A stretch of 64,000 nucleotides of DNA from a virus: positions 17,383 to 81,382 of IMG/VR virus record IMGVR_UViG_3300033153_003354; one strand, 5' to 3'. Positions 33,179 through 54,600 of this stretch are shown here, piece by piece; the first letter of the stretch is position 1, and every line of letters begins with the position of its first letter. The position numbers were made by a program, and so were the translations under genes. The notes beneath the pieces are model-generated. The model was given only the letters and a program-made list of their open reading frames with translations, did no database searches and had not been told where the DNA came from.

Positions 33179-33230
33179 TTCCACCACTAATTAGGAAAGG
33201 TTTATATAGTTTGAAGTATATACAACATTT

Positions 33231-44682: not shown

Positions 44683-45642
44683 GTGAAAATGAAAGTTCTT
44701 TTGATACAAATTGATGGGAAACTCCCAAATCTAGCCCTTATGAAGTTATCACAATACCATAAAGATCGTGGTGATATAGTTGTTCTTGAAAAATATAATC
44801 GTGCTCCAGGATGGGATATTCATAACCCAGATATGGTATATATTTCTTGTATTTGGAAAGAAAATCGTTTAGGTGCATTGGATGCACGAGATTTTTACCA
44901 ACAACGTGGGATAAAAACAATCATTGGTGGATCCGGTGTTGATTTAACTACAAAACTTGATCCAGACATTGAAAGATTGAAACCCGACTATTCATTATAT
45001 CCAGACAACGACAAATCAATGGGCTTTACAACGAGAGGGTGCATAAGGAAATGTGGTTTTTGTATAGTGCCAAAGAAAGAGGGCAAGATATGTAAATGGC
45101 AACATCCGAGAGAGTTTCATAACGAGGACTTTAACAAGATAACTTTACTTGATAGTAATGGTTATGCTATGAAAGATTGGTTCTTTGAGGTTACAGATTG
45201 GTATATGGAACAAGGATTAAAAATCGCTTACAATCAAGGGTTTGATATTAGGATATTGACAGAAGAAATCGCAGGAAGATTGGCAGATTTAAAATATTAT
45301 GAAACCTTACATTTTGCCTTTGATGGTATGGAGTATGAAGAAAAGGTGGTTGATGGTATTCAAATGTTGAAAGATGCAGGGATAAATATAAGATCAATGG
45401 TTCAATTTTTTGTATTGGTAGGTTACAATACCACCAAAGATGAAGATAAATATAGATGTCGATTATTGAAGGAATTAGGTACTGGTGCGTATGTCATGAG
45501 ATATAAAACCACTCCTTGGACAAAGAAAATATATCGTTGGGCTAACAGAAAAGAATTGTTTTGGTCTATTGATATAGATGATTACGATAGAAATCCAAAA
45601 CCAATTATCCCAGAAGCAGATAGTATAATGGAATTTATGTAA
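44683..45642 (+). CDS. Radical SAM protein with Rossmann/B12-binding-like N-terminus
   Basis: TRGCIRKCGFC (CxxxCxxC); PNLALMKLS and IGGSG N-terminal motifs; FVLVGY. Confidence 0.9.
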   Translation: MKMKVLLIQIDGKLPNLALMKLSQYHKDRGDIVVLEKYNRAPGWDIHNPDMVYISCIWKENRLGALDARDFYQQRGIKTIIGGSGVDLTTKLDPDIERLKPDYSLYPDNDKSMGFTTRGCIRKCGFCIVPKKEGKICKWQHPREFHNEDFNKITLLDSNGYAMKDWFFEVTDWYMEQGLKIAYNQGFDIRILTEEIAGRLADLKYYETLHFAFDGMEYEEKVVDGIQMLKDAGINIRSMVQFFVLVGYNTTKDEDKYRCRLLKELGTGAYVMRYKTTPWTKKIYRWANRKELFWSIDIDDYDRNPKPIIPEADSIMEFM

Positions 45643-45723: not shown

Positions 45724-46044
45724 ATGACTAAAAAAGTAATTGAAGGTATATTTTGCAACATGTGTGGTCGTTTTATTAAATATACATATGATAAATATAC
45801 AAAATCTTCAGAATGTATAGGATGTGGAAAACATCTATGTGAAAAGTGTACTTGTGAGATCAATGTAACAACAATCAAAAGACATTGGAAAGAATCTACT
45901 GGTACACTGCCTTATGGAGCTGGTGGTACAATAACATCACCATTTAGAGAGATAAAAATATGTGAAGATTGTCTTCCTAGTGACAACGAGGTTTTGGATG
46001 CAATCACTACATATATCAAAGGCGTTGGTGAGAATGATGACTGA
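45724..46044 (+). CDS. Multi-CxxC zinc-finger protein
   Basis: Four CxxC pairs; AGGTGA RBS. Confidence 0.65.
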   Translation: MTKKVIEGIFCNMCGRFIKYTYDKYTKSSECIGCGKHLCEKCTCEINVTTIKRHWKESTGTLPYGAGGTITSPFREIKICEDCLPSDNEVLDAITTYIKGVGENDD

Positions 46045-46231
46045 AGATTGTAAATCATCTCTTAATAAATTTATTCGCAAACTTACTCATAGACCACTCC
46101 TTACCTATGTAAATATATAAAAGAGTTACTTCACACGTAAGGAGAAATTAATCGCCTTGCAAAGTCGAGTAACCCGAAGATGTATAAATATGTTTAGAAA
46201 AGTTTATATAGTTTGACAACATACTTGTTTT

Positions 46232-46301
46232 GATATAACGGGAAACCAACATGTCGCTTGGTTCATTGTTTCACCTCAACTTAATTTTATCCCGTTATGT
46301 C
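46232..46301 (+). ncRNA. Putative small RNA: 12-bp closing stem with an anti-RBS loop
   Basis: TTTATATA at 46203 places the start at G46232; GATATAACGGGA pairs with TCCCGTTATGTC; loop contains CATTGTTTCACCTC. Confidence 0.5.
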
Positions 46302-46622
46302 TACTATATGATCTTGTGAGTTACACCACTAACAAGTGGGTTTTTCAAAAATTGACCTCACGGTTTTTCTAGGGTGACAATGACAAGGAAAAAGCTGTCG
46401 AGAAAAAGTGAATTTAATAATAAGATATTAACATTTAAATAATCTTGGATCGAGAGATTTAATTAACTTCAACTTTCAAGTTCACTTTCACCCTACTTGC
46501 TTCCAAAATGAAGTGGAACTTATTTTTATGTGTTTGACTAGGGATCATCAACCTTGAATTGGAACTTAAAGGATATACTATTATATAGTCACACAGGTAT
46601 AGAGTGGTAGAGGTGTAAAAAA

Positions 46623-47427
46623 ATGTCCAAAGATGAAACCCAATCGAACAACGAAACGATAAATGCAGTGTGCCAGCTGATAGAGAGGATAATGTTGGAG
46701 GGTGATGATCCATTCGCTCCGCATGTATATCTATCCTCATATCCAGAGTTGGCGATATATAATTTATCGGAATCCGAAATAAAAGAGATATGGGAAAAAG
46801 AGGTGATTAAATGAACATAAAAACAACAAAGACAAAGACCGGATACGAGATAAGAGTGAACGGAAAGATCGTATATAGTGACGATATAGAGGAGGAAATT
46901 TAAATTTTCTATTTGTTTTTCAAATAAAAAGAAGAGGTGAAAAAATGGTCGATAGCACATTGGTCGCTCTTGGGATCACGAGTGGAATTATCGGTTCGGC
47001 AATAATATTAAAAGGACCGATAAAAGATTTGTTTTTATCCCTGGGTGAGAATTTAAAACCTACTCCCCCGACACCAGAGATAACAGTCGAATTTAAATCT
47101 CCGGTTGAGATAAAAAACACGGATATAAATTTCTCGACACCGATAGAAATCCATACATACTCGATGCCTAGGAAGAGAGATAAAAATCCAAAACCGGAGA
47201 TAAAAGAATACTTGCTATGAGGTGGAAAAATGAAAAAAATATATAAAAAACTATTGGTCGATGAATGGCAAAAAGAATTCTCGGTTATTGAGGTATCCAA
47301 AGAGTGTTTTGATATTAGCCCAGAAATTGAAACTGTCGGAACGATGATCGGAATAAAAATTTATTCATTGGAGGATTTAAATTTTCGAATGAATATATTG
47401 ATCGAAAAAGGATTCTCTTTATATTGA
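46623..47427 (+). CDS. Small-gene operon (46623-46814, short ORF from 46811, 46945-47220 membrane-anchored, 47230-47427)
   Basis: GAGGTG RBS before each ORF; CpG-richer composition than the flanks. Confidence 0.6.
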
Positions 47428-47522: not shown

Positions 47523-47950
47523 AAAAATCTCTACCAATTGACGACCTTTTATATTTCCGAAAAGTTATAAATATATTTCTCTGGAGCTAGAAATCTCTAC
47601 CAATTGAGTCAATTACGTTTTGGTTTAATTATTTGTCGTTCCGATAAAAAATAAACCAAGTTCCAAAAAATCTCTACCAATTGAGGGTGCTGGGACACAA
47701 AAAAGAGGTGATTTTGTCCAACCGAGCTGTGTCCCAGCGAAGTGATACAGGTCTGCCCGGTTTCTTACAGTGTTTCCATCCGTTTGTAAACCACTATATG
47801 ATGCACGTAGTATAAATACTTTCCTACCCCAAAGATGTTTTGCTGGACAAATGTCCAAATAACCACTTGGTTAAGAGTAAAATGACCGATTATAACACCG
47901 AAATAACCACTAAATTAAATTTTCGTCTGGTCAAAATCCCTACCAATTGA
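47523..47950 (+). repeat. Four direct repeats AAATC(T/C)CTACCAATTGA (iteron- or pac-like)
   Basis: Core CTACCAATTGA at 47531, 47597, 47674 and 47940. Confidence 0.85.
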
Positions 47951-48142: not shown

Positions 48143-48586
48143 TTAATCATCCTCATCCAGCTCATTATCATCCAAGATGTCATATTTGTCTAACAATGAT
48201 TTGATCTCACCAGTTTCTTCAGCTTCCTTAACCTCTTTGATAGCTTGGCGCACCAAATATTGTACCATTTTCTTACTTGCCCTCTGACTTACCTTCTTTA
48301 CATGGAAGGATCCAACATTTATGTTTATATTTTGTCGTAATTCCAATATCATCTGTATATCTTGGAAGGCAATTGTCTTTCCCGGCATTTTCGCAGCACA
48401 TCCAGCCACATCCTCAACAATCGTATTCACAACCAGGTTGATCGCATCAATAACTTCAGCAGAGATACGTTTGCCACTCCCATCCTTGAGAGCTTTCCGC
48501 ACCAAAGATTTGTTAATCATCATTGGGAGATCCTCTGCTCGTTGCTCGTCCATGCCTTTCTCTAATATCTCAAATACTTCCATCAT
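48143..48586 (-). CDS. Histone-fold protein with acidic tails and a possible second partial fold
   Basis: INKSLVRKALKDGSGKRISAEVIDAIN...AAKMPGKTIAFQDI matches the alpha1-RIS-alpha2-KTI-x-x-x-D histone signature; GGGGTGA RBS; own TATA promoter. Confidence 0.75.
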   Translation of the reverse strand: MMEVFEILEKGMDEQRAEDLPMMINKSLVRKALKDGSGKRISAEVIDAINLVVNTIVEDVAGCAAKMPGKTIAFQDIQMILELRQNININVGSFHVKKVSQRASKKMVQYLVRQAIKEVKEAEETGEIKSLLDKYDILDDNELDEDD

Positions 48587-49679
48587 ATCACCCCGATTTG
48601 TGGTTTTATCGGATTTTCGACAAATCCAGAAAACGGATCACCAACAATCTATGTCAAAGATGTATAAAAACCTTTCCCAAGGATGATTTTATAGACCCCA
48701 TGGGTCTATCGCCCAAAATACTCCAAAAGTCAGGGGAAGTATATAATCTATTATTATTATATACAATACTGAAACGAAATATTTATCAGTGGTGGTATTT
48801 AAACTTCCACTACTAGAAGTTTAAGTTTATATACTTACATAAATAACAAGTCAAATAAACAAACCATATATTAGAATAATATATGGTATAGTATGCCTAA
48901 ATATCCAAACCTTCTATATATACCTTGACATGTCAGTTGTGGTAGTTCTATTATTACCACTACTGTGAAGTGATAGAATTAAACTATATAAACTTGCACT
49001 GCCAGCCATGTTGTCGTATTATATTATGTATATAATATAGGGATCTGCTTGTTATCTTTCTATTATATATATTTTATGGAGTGTTACTTTTCCATATTTT
49101 GCAATTCTGTGGACCGATTTTAAATTTGATATCCGTTAAACCTCGAAATACTCCATATATTCAATAAAAAGGGGTCAAAACTATCACGGAATCGAAAACC
49201 ACCCAAAATCGAAAAAAAGGGGGGTCATATATATAGATGAAGGAAAAAATAATGTTTTTTTGATAAAGTGTGTTTTTTTACAATATATATAATAATTTCT
49301 ATTACTAGTCAGATAACACCACTAACAAGTGGGATTACAAATGGAATTGTTAGTAAATTAACCAAAGATGGAAATGTAAATTTGACTATCAATCGACTAT
49401 TAAATTCATCATTTTGTTGTTCTGTGTAACTTGCAGTGACATAGATCAACCATATCATCTTTGGTATAGATTACTATAGAAATAAGATTGATGATAAAGT
49501 GGAAAGGACACCCGTGAGTGTTTAAGAATAAAGTGTTGTGATCGTCTGTGTCCTATTCCAAAGATGAATGTACTTGTATGTATATAAATGTATTGGTCGT
49601 TTGATTGTCCGGTTGTTCCGTTAATCCTACGGAGTAATGGATCAAACGGCGTACATATACTAACCATCACAAATCATCT

Positions 49680-51683: not shown

Positions 51684-54600
51684 ATGGAACTAATATGGAC
51701 AATATTCGTAGGCGTGTTACTTGCAAATGTAGTTGGATCAGTGGTGACTTTTCTTTTGGTAATGTTGCCATTATCACTATTACAATATGTATTGAAAAAG
51801 AAACTAAATGAACAACTAGTGAAATTATGTGTAGATGCCAAACTAAATCATGTCATTATAGAAAAGTGAAAGGTGGAACAAAATGACCAAAGATGAATTT
51901 AATTGGACCGAAGATAAAGTGATGGATTTTATTGACAAACAAGATGAATTCAAAAAACATTGTCGAGAAGTGGTAGTAACAATTCAAGAAATAAGAACCA
52001 GTAATAATTTCAATTATAAATTCAAAGAATATGATTCTATATCAATTGAAGAAGGAACGGTATTTGTTGAATATGAAGAAGATTTATGTGGTTGTTGTGA
52101 TAATAGAATGTCAATTACATTTCCTATTAAATATCTTTGGGCAACCATAGAGGATTTTGAACAATATGAAAAGGATCTTGAAAAGGCTGCTATGGCAACA
52201 GAAGCATATAGGAAAACGATGCTTGAAGCGGCCAAGTTAAAAAAAGAAATTCTGGAAAAACAAGAATATGATCGTCTTCGGGAAAAGTTTGGTGATTAAG
52301 ATGGGTATATATGAAAAATGTTACAAAGAACAATACGGAGAAGAGTTTGAAGCATGGAAATCAGATACATCCGATACATATAATGAATGTATGGATAAAT
52401 TGATTAATTCAGGAGTTGGCATAATGGATGCTTTCATATTTGTAGAAGAAATAATTTCCGCCACTAGGGAAGAATATGGTGATTAAATGGAACATCAACA
52501 TAGATTTTATCGTGTGACAACAAAAGATGGACTCAAGGGACCATTTGAACCAATAGAAGAACTAATACTAACAATAGGTAGTATAAATATAGAGGATTAT
52601 CCATTATCAATAGAATTAAAAGAAATGACATTTGAAGAATATGAAGATCTACCAGTATGGTTAGGATGGTGAGTGAATGATAACAGTAACACATTGTAAT
52701 AAATGTAAGGGCGATGGATCTTATCTAACTGGTGGAAACAGAGAACGAAAAATATATGGTCCAGGTGGATCACAAACGTTTAAGACATGTAGTAAATGTA
52801 ATGGAACTGGTCATGTTGTTAAAGAGGTGAGTAAATGACATGTTTAGAATGTGGATGCCCAATGATAAGAGAACAGTATGGAAGATGTCAATGTGATTGT
52901 GAGTGGTGCGATCCTGATTTATAGGACCAATAAGTTTATATACTACCATCATTATTAGGTTGTTAAGGTGAAACCAAAGATGGAAAACAAAGTGAAGGTG
53001 GAACATGTGATTAATCATATAAAAATAAAAGAAGAAATACAAAGATTAATAGAATTGGACAAGCAAGAAAGAGAAATACTTCTTGATATTACTAATAAAA
53101 CAGAAAAAGTAATTGCTGATATTAAATTTTTAAATGGTAGAATGCATGCATATAATATGGTATTACATTTAATGGATAAACAAGAATTTCAATATGTGGA
53201 GGATTTGTGAATGGAAAACAAAGTGACAAAGGATGATTTACGAGTATGTGAAGTAATGATTCCAAATGAATTATGTGTGCTGAAGGCAAATAATCATATT
53301 GGTGATGATGTATATATTGTCAGACCACACTCTACCAATTATGATACAAAGATATGTAAGAATTGTACATTTCAACAAATGTGCAGGAATTCACAGTAGG
53401 TGAAACAAAATGATAACATGGTTACTTCTTTGGTTTTTAGGATACCGTAGACTAATTGTAAACAGTAAAGAAACTTGTTTTAAATCCAAAGGTACAGTCA
53501 TTTGGATAGGTAAAGATGGAGTTTTATATTCATGGATGACAGATAGATATTCTATGTTTGGATATTCATGGTTCCGTAAAAAACCAAGTAGAAAATATTG
53601 GGGCGGGTATATTTCTGGTGGATGCTGGGAAAGTTATATTTTAGATGATCTTATTGGATATATAATAAAAGATCGTCCATCAAAGATGAAGGAACAAACA
53701 GAAATACTAGTTATAAAATGCGTTCCAACATTTAGATGTGAATATGGTTTTGAAACAGATAACGTTCTTATAATGAACGATCATCATGTGGAGTGTTACA
53801 CATATGAAGGATAAACGAATTTTTAAATACAAATTAAACATAATCGATAGTCAATATATTCCAATGCCACAAGGTTCACAAATTCTATCAGTCAAAGAAC
53901 AAAATGGAACATTAAATATATGGGCAATAGTAGATATAAATAATGATAATATCAAAAATAGATGGTTTTACATCTTTGGAACAGGAAATGAATTTGATAT
54001 ATCTCTTGATGATGCTAAATTTATTGGCACTGTGGTAATGTCAAATGGTCTAGTATGGCACGTTTTTGATGGTGGAGAAACACAATGAATAAAAATGAAC
54101 AATATCGACACACCTCCCACCTGACCCAGACAGGTGTAAATTATTCTGGGTGGAGCGGGGATCTCTCGGTCCCGTCACCGAGTCCAGGCGGTGAGTATCC
54201 TGGACATCATCTTTGGGTCCATAAACTATATATACTTCCACTACTATAGGGTATTAGAGGTGTCACAAAATGAACCAAGAAACAAACCATAAAAGTGAGC
54301 CACACGACAAGTTCATAGTAAAATGGGTCCAGGAGGAGAATGATGGAAATCTTGTTGAATTAAAAGATGATTTCAACTCACTTCATGATGTAAACGAACA
54401 CATCACTCAACTACGACTCTATGCAGAACATACAGGAAAAACTTTCAAAGTAATATCTATTACAGAGGTGATCTAGATGATCGAAGATGATGTTAAATAC
54501 ATATGTCCAGATGCACCAGGTGGATGCAAATCATTGCATTGTTATCACAAAAATCCACATCAACATATAGATTATTATTGTGACACAGATGGAAAAATAT

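What the first reader, a model, noticed from the sequence alone, without database searches (positions are those of the whole stretch)
46203..46301. Promoter-driven stem-loop RNA displaying an anti-Shine-Dalgarno plus anti-AUG loop
Seen: a BRE/TATA (AAAAGTTTATATAGTTTGA, nearly identical to the AbrB-tnpB promoter) puts +1 at the first G of a 12-bp stem (46232-46243/46290-46301). The enclosed region carries CTTGGTTCATTGTTTCACCTC, the reverse complement of GAGGTGAAACA-ATG-AAC-CAA-G. It partly matches the initiation region of ORF 54270 (GAGGTGTCACAAAATGAACCAAG) and matches the helicase RBS AGGTGAAACATTG at 12 of 13 nt. Inference: a virus-encoded trans-acting antisense sRNA that blocks translation initiation of leadered viral or host mRNAs.
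Basis: partly seen in the sequence, partly recalled or inferred. Interest (0 to 1): 0.72.

Follow-up and report, generated by a model that had tools for sequence, protein, structure and literature searches.

The report
Candidate anti-ribosome-site small RNA gene
A probable archaeal tailed virus carries what looks like a stand-alone gene for a small folded RNA whose open loop mirrors a perfect ribosome-docking site, so it may switch off translation of other genes, but no transcript or relative could be found to prove it.

Summary
A consensus archaeal-type promoter (46198-46216, +) scores higher than any site outside my training set. It places +1 at 46232/46233, the first bases of a 12-bp stem (46232-43/46290-301). 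One U.G pair in that stem would be A.C on the minus strand. The 26-nt open strand (46264-89) is the exact complement of a canonical SD-N5-ATG. T5 runs at 46341 and 46364 would end a 110-137 nt RNA.

The cited matches to ORF 54270 and the helicase are no better than those given by the antisense of any real start site of this virus. The loop is also the start of a 20-codon minus-strand ORF, though I found no credible promoter for that ORF.

A second locus (47664-47821, minus) has the same plan. It is not a sequence relative.

There is no Rfam family. Both flanking genes are orphans in billions of proteins, so covariation cannot be tested. No sequencing run was listed.

Best reading: a plus-strand regulatory RNA that masks ribosome-binding sites; targets unresolved (confidence 0.4).

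Earlier AI notes of this scan flag similar anti-SD RNA candidates in other archaeal viruses; I did not test those.

The parts
46198..46216 (+). BRE/TATA-type promoter (TATA box TTTATATA at 46203-46210)
   Evidence: Exact copy of the 11-mer consensus, which occurs 6 times in the genome. Scores 19.5 bits with a PWM built from 19 gene-proximal promoters: the best non-training site, with only 7 positions genome-wide at or above 19.5 bits. Matches the AbrB-like/tnpB promoter at 22 of 24 positions.
46232..46243 (+). 5' arm of the 12-bp stem; predicted +1 at G46232/A46233
   Evidence: Sequence. The AbrB-like gene's ATG lies 23 nt after the last base of its near-identical TATA, which places +1 here. 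Inference; no transcript data.
46244..46263 (+). Inner 6-bp hairpin AACCAA / TTGGTT with an 8-nt loop CATGTCGC, stacked on the long stem
   Evidence: MFE and centroid structures.
46264..46289 (+). 26-nt single-stranded stretch carrying anti-AUG (CAT, 46264-66) and anti-SD (CACCTC, 46272-77)
   Evidence: Mean unpaired probability of CACCUC is 0.90. Its reverse complement is GAGGTG-N5-ATG, the layout of real gene starts in this genome.
46290..46301 (+). 3' arm of the 12-bp stem
   Evidence: T46234 pairs with G46299 as a U.G wobble on the plus strand only.
46326..46345 (+). Hairpin CCACT-AACA-AGTGG followed by a T5 run (46341-45): first candidate 3' end, giving an RNA of about 114 nt
   Evidence: Terminator-like hit. 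T5 runs are depleted in coding sense strands: 92 observed against 129 +/- 9 in shuffles. The 18-mer ACACCACTAACAAGTGGG recurs at 49316-33.
46364..46368 (+). Second T5 run: alternative 3' end, giving an RNA of about 137 nt
46204..46281 (-). Minus-strand mirror image: SD GAGGTG (46277-46272), ATG at 46266, and a 20-codon ORF ending at 46204 inside the plus-strand TATA box
   Evidence: The only TATA-like site upstream on this strand (46315) scores 0.5 bits, and 732 genome positions score as well or better.
47664..47821 (-). Second locus with the same plan, analogous but not homologous: promoter at 47821, perfect 11-bp stem 47689-99/47728-38, loop with AUCACCUC, T6 run at 47669-64
   Evidence: 10.9 bits; hairpin z = -4.4. 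Only 82 of 179 alignment columns are identical to RNA1.

Best explanation
A stand-alone plus-strand transcription unit makes a non-coding RNA of about 110-137 nt. It starts at 46232/46233 and ends at the T5 runs at 46341-45 or 46364-68. Its 5' end folds into a 12-bp stem capped by a small hairpin. This leaves 26 nt single-stranded, and that stretch reads as the exact antisense of a consensus Shine-Dalgarno sequence plus start codon. The RNA most likely pairs with the translation-initiation regions of SD-led mRNAs and blocks ribosome binding. Candidate targets include the strongly SD-led small genes in the right arm of the virus.

Shown: the sequence features and their fit to this genome's own promoters and start sites.
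Inferred: transcription, RNA ends, pairing in vivo, and the identity of the targets.
For: - Promoter: 19.5 bits, the best site outside the 19 training promoters. It is one of 6 exact copies of the 11-mer consensus.
- +1 position: fixed by analogy with the leaderless AbrB-like gene behind a near-identical promoter.
- Hairpin: begins at +1, z = -3.9. Its U.G pair exists only in the plus-strand RNA.
- Arms: the 9-mer is not a dispersed DNA motif (11 matches against 10.2 expected). This favours an RNA or local structure over an operator.
- Anti-SD stretch: 90% unpaired.
- SD pairing matters in this system. GAGGTG-N4-8-ATG occurs 10 times against 2.2 +/- 1.3 in random genomes, and 8 of the 10 are gene starts. 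AGGTG is depleted inside coding sense strands, 57 against 85 +/- 9.
- The opposite strand has no credible promoter (0.5 bits).
- A second promoter-driven hairpin 1.4 kb away also displays UCACCUC in its loop. Of 54 perfect stems of at least 9 bp in the genome, only these two enclose GAGGTG or CACCTC.
- T5 runs behave as avoided signals in genes.
Against: - There is no transcript evidence and there are no relatives, so there is no covariation or conservation test.
- Complementarity to viral start regions is what any antisense start region would give, so no specific target is indicated.
- The loop is equally the start region of a 20-codon minus-strand ORF.
- About 2 orphan SD+ATG look-alikes per genome are expected by chance.
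- Longer folds are only modestly better than shuffles and do not tell the strands apart: z = -2.1 and -2.3, and -1.8 for 219 nt.
- Genome-wide, 1% of 70-nt windows fold as well.
- RNA2 as a whole gives z = -0.9, and its anti-SD is only 46% unpaired.
- T5 runs are common; 92 lie inside genes.
Confidence: 0.4

Rival explanations
1. A cis-antisense pair. The minus strand carries a real 20-codon gene (SD at 46277-72, ATG at 46266). The plus-strand RNA is its dedicated antisense repressor, in the manner of IS10 RNA-OUT/RNA-IN or P22 sar/ant.
For: The minus-strand sequence is a perfect copy of this genome's start-site layout, GAGGTG-N5-ATG, and 8 of 10 such sites are gene starts. The virus has many tiny SD-led ORFs of 29-30 aa. 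A TATA-like AAGATCATATA lies 27 nt upstream of the SD, the same spacing as at the helicase gene.
Against: That TATA-like site scores 0.5 bits, and 732 positions score as well or better. No other minus-strand promoter lies upstream without intervening oligo-T runs. The ORF is only 20 codons; by my own arithmetic, about 21% of random frames at this base composition reach that length. The peptide is not hydrophobic or otherwise recognisable.
Confidence: 0.15
2. No dedicated RNA function. The promoter serves downstream plus-strand genes, or the region is the 3' untranslated/terminator zone of the upstream operon. The inverted repeat around a relic start-site copy is an accident of recombination.
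For: About 2.2 chance SD+ATG look-alikes are expected per genome, and 2 non-genic ones are seen. There are 54 perfect stems of at least 9 bp in the genome, and 1% of windows fold as well. No conservation can be shown. Start regions of this virus share words of 9-16 nt, so copies could arise by recombination.
Against: A chance SD look-alike falling inside a hairpin that starts at +1 of the genome's best orphan promoter is improbable. With 7 non-genic GAGGTG sites per 81 kb, I calculate about 0.05 expected in roughly 600 bp of orphan-promoter-proximal DNA, against 2 seen, both in antisense orientation. The next gene (46623) has its own TATA at 46577. A 580-bp gap is unusual in this compact genome.
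Confidence: 0.2
3. A structured 5' leader or attenuator. The transcript continues into the 20-codon basic ORF at 46380-46442 (SD-like GGGTGA at 46372-77) or further. The CACCUC stretch sequesters that SD in cis.
For: GGGTGA-CA-ATG lies just after the second T5 run. The same GGTGA-N2-ATG spacing is used by the 317-aa radical SAM gene. By eye, CATTGT..CACC can pair with GGGTGACAATG, leaving a 2-nt bulge.
Against: In the 219-nt fold the 5' hairpin is unchanged and the anti-SD stretch stays unpaired. Gene promoters here sit 21-27 nt from the SD in most cases, so a 148-nt leader would be an outlier. Two T5 runs intervene.
Confidence: 0.12
4. The plus-strand RNA is a small mRNA for the 22-aa hydrophobic peptide MSLGSLFHLNLILSRYVYYMIL (46251-46319), like a type I toxin.
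For: The ORF starts 19 nt after the predicted +1. The peptide is rich in hydrophobic residues.
Against: There is no SD, while SD use is the rule here. T-rich strands give hydrophobic random ORFs. No antitoxin promoter is found on the other strand.
Confidence: 0.04

Closest known systems
Methanosarcina mazei intergenic sRNAs sRNA41, sRNA154 and sRNA162
   Same: These are archaeal, independently transcribed small RNAs that repress translation by masking ribosome-binding sites or start codons. I read passages in PMC5867862 and PMC3432209.
   Different: Those are cellular, experimentally detected, and have identified targets. This one is viral and purely predicted, with no target standing out. No sequence relation was tested or expected.
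Phage P22 sar RNA and P1/P7 c4 RNA
   Same: These are phage-encoded small antisense RNAs of the immunity region that act on anti-repressor expression. [quoted passage not shown] That they pair with the ant ribosome-binding site is recalled, not read.
   Different: They are bacterial phages. sar is strictly cis-antisense to a real gene. No Rfam family, C4 included, matched here.
IS10/Tn10 RNA-OUT and RNA-IN
   Same: A strong outward promoter makes a stem-loop RNA whose loop pairs with the 5' end, SD and AUG of the convergent transcript. This is recalled; Tn10 antisense control is mentioned in PMC3432209.
   Different: Here the convergent 'IN' promoter is not credible (0.5 bits), and the 'IN' frame has only 20 codons.
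Antisense RNAs of archaeal viruses: phiH counter-transcript and SSV1 T3E
   Same: They show that archaeal viruses make regulatory antisense RNAs. I read passages in PMC6210493 and in bioRxiv 10.64898/2026.06.17.732947.
   Different: Both are cis-antisense to long genes. Neither is described, in the passages I read, as displaying an anti-SD loop or acting in trans.

Membership tests
Any Rfam family (including phage C4 antisense RNA and C/D-box sRNAs) | Covariance-model score at or above the family's gathering threshold | tested here: not met
   Whole window at gathering threshold: only a tRNA at 829-904. Region 45900-46700 at E<=10: 6 matches, the best 18.2 bits against a cut-off of 43. The only one overlapping the hairpin on the plus strand is RUF1, 13.6 bits against 70.
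Archaeal C/D-box sRNA | C box RUGAUGA near the 5' end and D box CUGA near the 3' end | tested here: not met
   Read directly from 46232-46345: there is no TGATGA and no CTGA.
Trans-acting RBS-masking sRNA (functional class) | Own promoter and terminator, outside any ORF | tested here: met
   Met by prediction only: a 19.5-bit promoter, T5 runs at 46341 and 46364, and no ORF longer than 34 aa.
Trans-acting RBS-masking sRNA (functional class) | Accessible seed complementary to SD and/or start codon | tested here: met
   CACCUC is 90% unpaired and is the complement of GAGGTG-N5-ATG.
Trans-acting RBS-masking sRNA (functional class) | Complementarity to particular targets beyond what background gives | tested here: not met
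   Best duplex is -20.2 kcal/mol against a control mean of -22.6 +/- 3.4 for 35 antisense start regions. Longest shared word is 13 nt against a control range of 9-16.
Trans-acting RBS-masking sRNA (functional class) | Detected transcript; conservation with covariation | not testable with these tools
Cis-antisense pair of the IS10 RNA-OUT/RNA-IN or P22 sar/ant type | Convergent promoter driving the sense transcript | tested here: not met
   The best minus-strand site in 46282-46359 scores 0.5 bits, and 732 genome positions score at least that.
Cis-antisense pair of the IS10 RNA-OUT/RNA-IN or P22 sar/ant type | A substantial sense gene whose start region lies in the overlap | tested here: inconclusive
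   The start-site layout is perfect, but the ORF has only 20 codons.
Type I toxin-antitoxin | Small hydrophobic membrane peptide plus an antisense RNA | tested here: inconclusive
   The minus-strand peptide MNQATCWFPVISKQVCCQTI is not a transmembrane helix. The plus-strand 22-aa peptide is hydrophobic but has no SD and no antisense promoter.

The most novel reading that the evidence does not exclude
The virus encodes mimics of the 3' tail of 16S rRNA. RNA1 (UCACCUC) and RNA2 (AUCACCUC) would be expressed from consensus promoters that converge on a four-gene operon. The CACCUCC island at 54.1 kb may be a third. They would act as anti-Shine-Dalgarno decoys that globally damp the strongly SD-led genes of the right arm: 22 of 50 genes there have SD matches of at least 6 nt, against 4 of 31 in the structural block. 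This would shift translation toward weak-SD or leaderless late genes, a translational timing switch not described in the passages and listings I read for any archaeal virus.
Probability: 0.1. Interest if true: 0.85.

Novelty: new variant of a known kind. Interest (0 to 1): 0.5.

Why it matters
Regulation of archaeal viruses by small RNAs is almost unexplored. The cases I found in print are cis-antisense transcripts of phiH and SSV1.

A promoter-driven viral RNA that presents the ribosome's own anti-SD sequence would be a simple way to control a whole class of SD-led mRNAs. It would be directly testable by Northern blot, TSS mapping and toeprinting.

The control used here also bears on similar notes of this scan: the antisense of any real start site pairs equally well with other start sites. 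Complementarity to ribosome-binding sites therefore cannot, on its own, name targets.

Tried and rejected
Relatives for covariation:
- blastn against phage records found nothing.
- IMG/VR scans with the radical SAM, 106-aa and TerL proteins and with the 21-mer loop found nothing.
- The 106-aa and 63-aa neighbours match only themselves among 5.8 billion proteins.
- The radical SAM neighbour has 4,444 hits, but the best is 60% identical.
- The 91-aa protein has one 53% homologue. It sits on ENA contigs of 771 and 1,398 bp. It was not found in IMG/VR or JGI metagenomes.
- A structured DNA pattern gave 3 metagenome hits and the 18-mer gave 2 IMG/VR hits. All five were judged unrelated by eye: 42-54% GC and dissimilar flanks.
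- 45 genome loci holding radical SAM homologues share at most 4 genes with this virus, and none is a related provirus.

Sequencing runs: none was listed and no RNA holder was listed.

Ideas rejected:
- Homology between RNA1 and RNA2: only 82 of 179 alignment columns are identical.
- A derivative of the tnpB element ends: only the promoter is shared.
- The arms as a dispersed operator motif: 11 matches against 10.2 expected.
- Paralogy of the minus-strand frame with ORF 54270 beyond the start: none.
- Bacterial sigma-70 promoters: 20 found against 21.6 expected.
- The GC-rich island at 54.1 kb as a third structured anti-SD RNA: z = -0.9.
- An invertible switch or a transposon with inverted ends: a 46-bp segment is too short for inversion, by my reasoning.

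Correction: my first notebook entry said 7 exact promoter 11-mers. The count is 6, corrected in the second entry.

Supplementary files were not requested. The supplemental tables of the SSV1 preprint may hold further small RNAs that I did not see.

Full report
**Context.** The window is bases 17383-81382 of an 81,382-bp single-contig virus record with 33% G+C. It encodes a Mu-type portal, a large terminase, an SNF2 helicase and a TnpB. Its genes are preceded by TATA-type boxes followed 21-27 nt later by GGTGA-type Shine-Dalgarno (SD) motifs. Bacterial sigma-70 patterns are not enriched: 20 found against 21.6 expected. Named homologues of its radical SAM gene include Methanocorpusculum and Methanothrix, and the best genome locus is a Methanogranum MAG at 42% identity. 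An archaeal host, probably a methanogen, is therefore an inference and is not shown. The finding lies in a 578-bp gap between an orphan 106-aa zinc-ribbon-like gene (45724-46044) and a 63-aa gene (46623-46814) that has its own TATA box.

**Observation.**
- The promoter string spans 46198-46216.
- The stem arms are 46232-43 and 46290-301: 11 Watson-Crick pairs plus one U.G.
- The 21-mer lies at 46257-77.
- The helicase match is 12 of 13.
- The ORF 54270 match is GAGGTG plus an 11-nt block.

**Is there a plus-strand transcription unit?**
- The core 11-mer AAGTTTATATA occurs exactly six times in the genome. Three copies stand in front of genes (32508 minus, 51638, 52932). Three have no gene (46200, 48823, 48995).
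- I built a position weight matrix from 19 gene-proximal promoters that excluded this site. It scores this site 19.5 bits, the best non-training position, and only 7 positions on both strands reach that score.
- The promoter matches that of the 45-aa AbrB-like gene upstream of tnpB at 22 of 24 positions. That gene's ATG lies 23 nt after the last TATA base, so it is leaderless or nearly so.
- The same spacing puts +1 at G46232/A46233, the first bases of the stem.
- Downstream lie a small hairpin plus T5 (46326-45) and a second T5 (46364-68). T5 runs are under-represented in coding sense strands: 92 against 129 +/- 9 in codon-order shuffles. This fits oligo-T termination, which is recalled knowledge for archaea. 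Still, 92 such runs lie inside genes, so T5 is not a strict stop.

**Structure.**
- The 70-nt hairpin folds at -18.9 kcal/mol with z = -3.9 on the plus strand, and at -17.4 with z = -2.9 on the minus strand. These coordinates were picked after seeing the stem.
- Over 118 nt the two strands do not differ (z = -2.1 and -2.3).
- 234 of 23,232 windows fold as well.
- The U.G pair, which is A.C on the other strand, is a single datum for the plus strand.
- The arm 9-mer is not a dispersed motif.
- The 26-nt strand with CAT and CACCTC is 90% unpaired.

**What the loop is.** Its complement, GAGGTGAAACAATG, is this genome's canonical start-site layout.
- GAGGTG occurs 15 times on both strands.
- GAGGTG-N4-8-ATG occurs 10 times, against 2.2 +/- 1.3 in 200 random genomes. 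Eight of the ten are gene starts.
- AGGTG is avoided inside coding sense strands: 57 against 85 +/- 9. SD pairing therefore matters here.

Two readings follow. Either the plus-strand RNA displays an anti-start-site sequence, or the minus strand holds a real start site. The minus frame has 20 codons. Its only upstream TATA-like site scores 0.5 bits, and 732 positions do as well. No other minus-strand promoter lies upstream without oligo-T runs. I therefore take the plus strand to be the expressed one.

**Trans targets.** I compared the loop with the start regions (-25 to +15) of 131 predicted genes.
- Its best duplex is -20.2 kcal/mol, with gene 52980.
- As controls I used the antisense of 35 real strong-SD start regions, each tested against all other genes. 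These give a best duplex of -22.6 +/- 3.4, and 80% do at least as well as the loop.
- The longest exact word shared with a real start region is 13 nt (gene 35982). Controls range from 9 to 16, and 9 of 35 reach 13 or more.

They neither support nor exclude trans action.

**A second locus.** At 47664-47821 on the minus strand there is a promoter (10.9 bits), a perfect 11-bp G+C-rich stem (hairpin z = -4.4), a loop with AUCACCUC, and a T6 run.
- Its loop matches 14 of 14 nt of the start region of ORF 46811.
- Its opposite strand has no ATG, only a TTG 3 nt after GAGGTG.
- Its anti-SD is only 46% unpaired, and the whole RNA gives z = -0.9.
- It is not a sequence relative of RNA1.
- Of 54 perfect stems of at least 9 bp in the genome, only these two enclose GAGGTG or CACCTC.
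- With 7 non-genic GAGGTG sites in 81 kb, I calculate about 0.05 expected in the roughly 600 bp just downstream of the orphan promoters. Two are seen, both antisense to the promoter. This is post hoc but hard to ascribe to chance.

**Comparative and expression evidence.** None could be obtained. The details are in Tried and rejected. No Rfam family matches.

**Comparison with what is known.**
- RBS-masking sRNAs are established in bacteria and in Methanosarcina mazei (passages in PMC5867862; PMC3432209).
- Phages use small antisense RNAs such as P22 sar (passage in PMC5415839).
- Archaeal viruses are known to make cis-antisense RNAs: phiH (passages in PMC6210493) and SSV1 T3E (passages in a 2026 bioRxiv preprint).
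- My searches turned up no archaeal-virus sRNA with an exposed anti-SD loop. These were keyword searches of an open-access library, not proof of absence.
- Earlier AI notes of this scan list similar candidates in other archaeal viruses. I did not test them.

**Verdict.** This is a credible but unproven gene for a small plus-strand RNA with an exposed anti-start-site loop. RBS masking is the most likely mode of action (confidence 0.4). Its targets, and whether it acts in cis or in trans, are unresolved.

Noticed in passing
window 47525-47950: Four direct copies of about 17-20 nt (AAATCTCTACCAATTGA), with start-to-start spacing of 66, 77 and 266 bp, lie in non-coding DNA. On the minus strand three of them are followed by T4-T6 runs. 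They could be iterons of an origin or 3' modules of small transcripts.
   Followed up: no
window 46322-46339, 49316-49333 and 33182-33190: The identical 18-mer ACACCACTAACAAGTGGG occurs twice. Its core CACCACTAA also lies just upstream of the AbrB-like/tnpB promoter. There are 3 exact copies of the 9-mer, all on the plus strand and all intergenic. It is possibly a protein-binding palindrome.
   Followed up: partly
window 48806-48995: Consensus promoters face each other (48823 plus and 48995 minus, both exact 11-mers). No ORF lies between them, and hairpins sit just after each predicted start (an 11-bp perfect stem at 48863-87). The RNAs they would make are convergent and overlapping.
   Followed up: no
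window 46380-46442: A 20-codon, very basic plus-strand ORF (MTRKKLSRKSEFNNKILTFK) with an SD-like GGGTGA lies directly after the second T5 run.
   Followed up: partly
window 54100-54215: A G+C-rich island (about 57-60%) downstream of gene 53786-54088 carries CACCTCC on the transcribed strand. Its fold is not better than shuffles (z = -0.9).
   Followed up: partly
window 49588-49657: This is one of the most stable 70-nt windows of the genome (-26.8 kcal/mol, plus strand) and lies in non-coding DNA.
   Followed up: no
window 48143-48583 (minus): Another first-stage note calls this gene a histone, but it matched no Pfam family at E<=0.01.
   Followed up: no
window 44689-45642; loci L019, L022, L023, L026, L030, L032, L036, L050: The radical SAM gene is very widespread (4,444 hits). 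In 8 of 45 fetched genome loci, homologues of this virus's SNF2 helicase lie within a few kb of it. This suggests a mobile DNA-modification module.
   Followed up: no
whole genome: Strong SD matches (at least 6 nt) are concentrated in the right arm: 22 of 50 genes there, against 4 of 31 in the structural block.
   Followed up: partly
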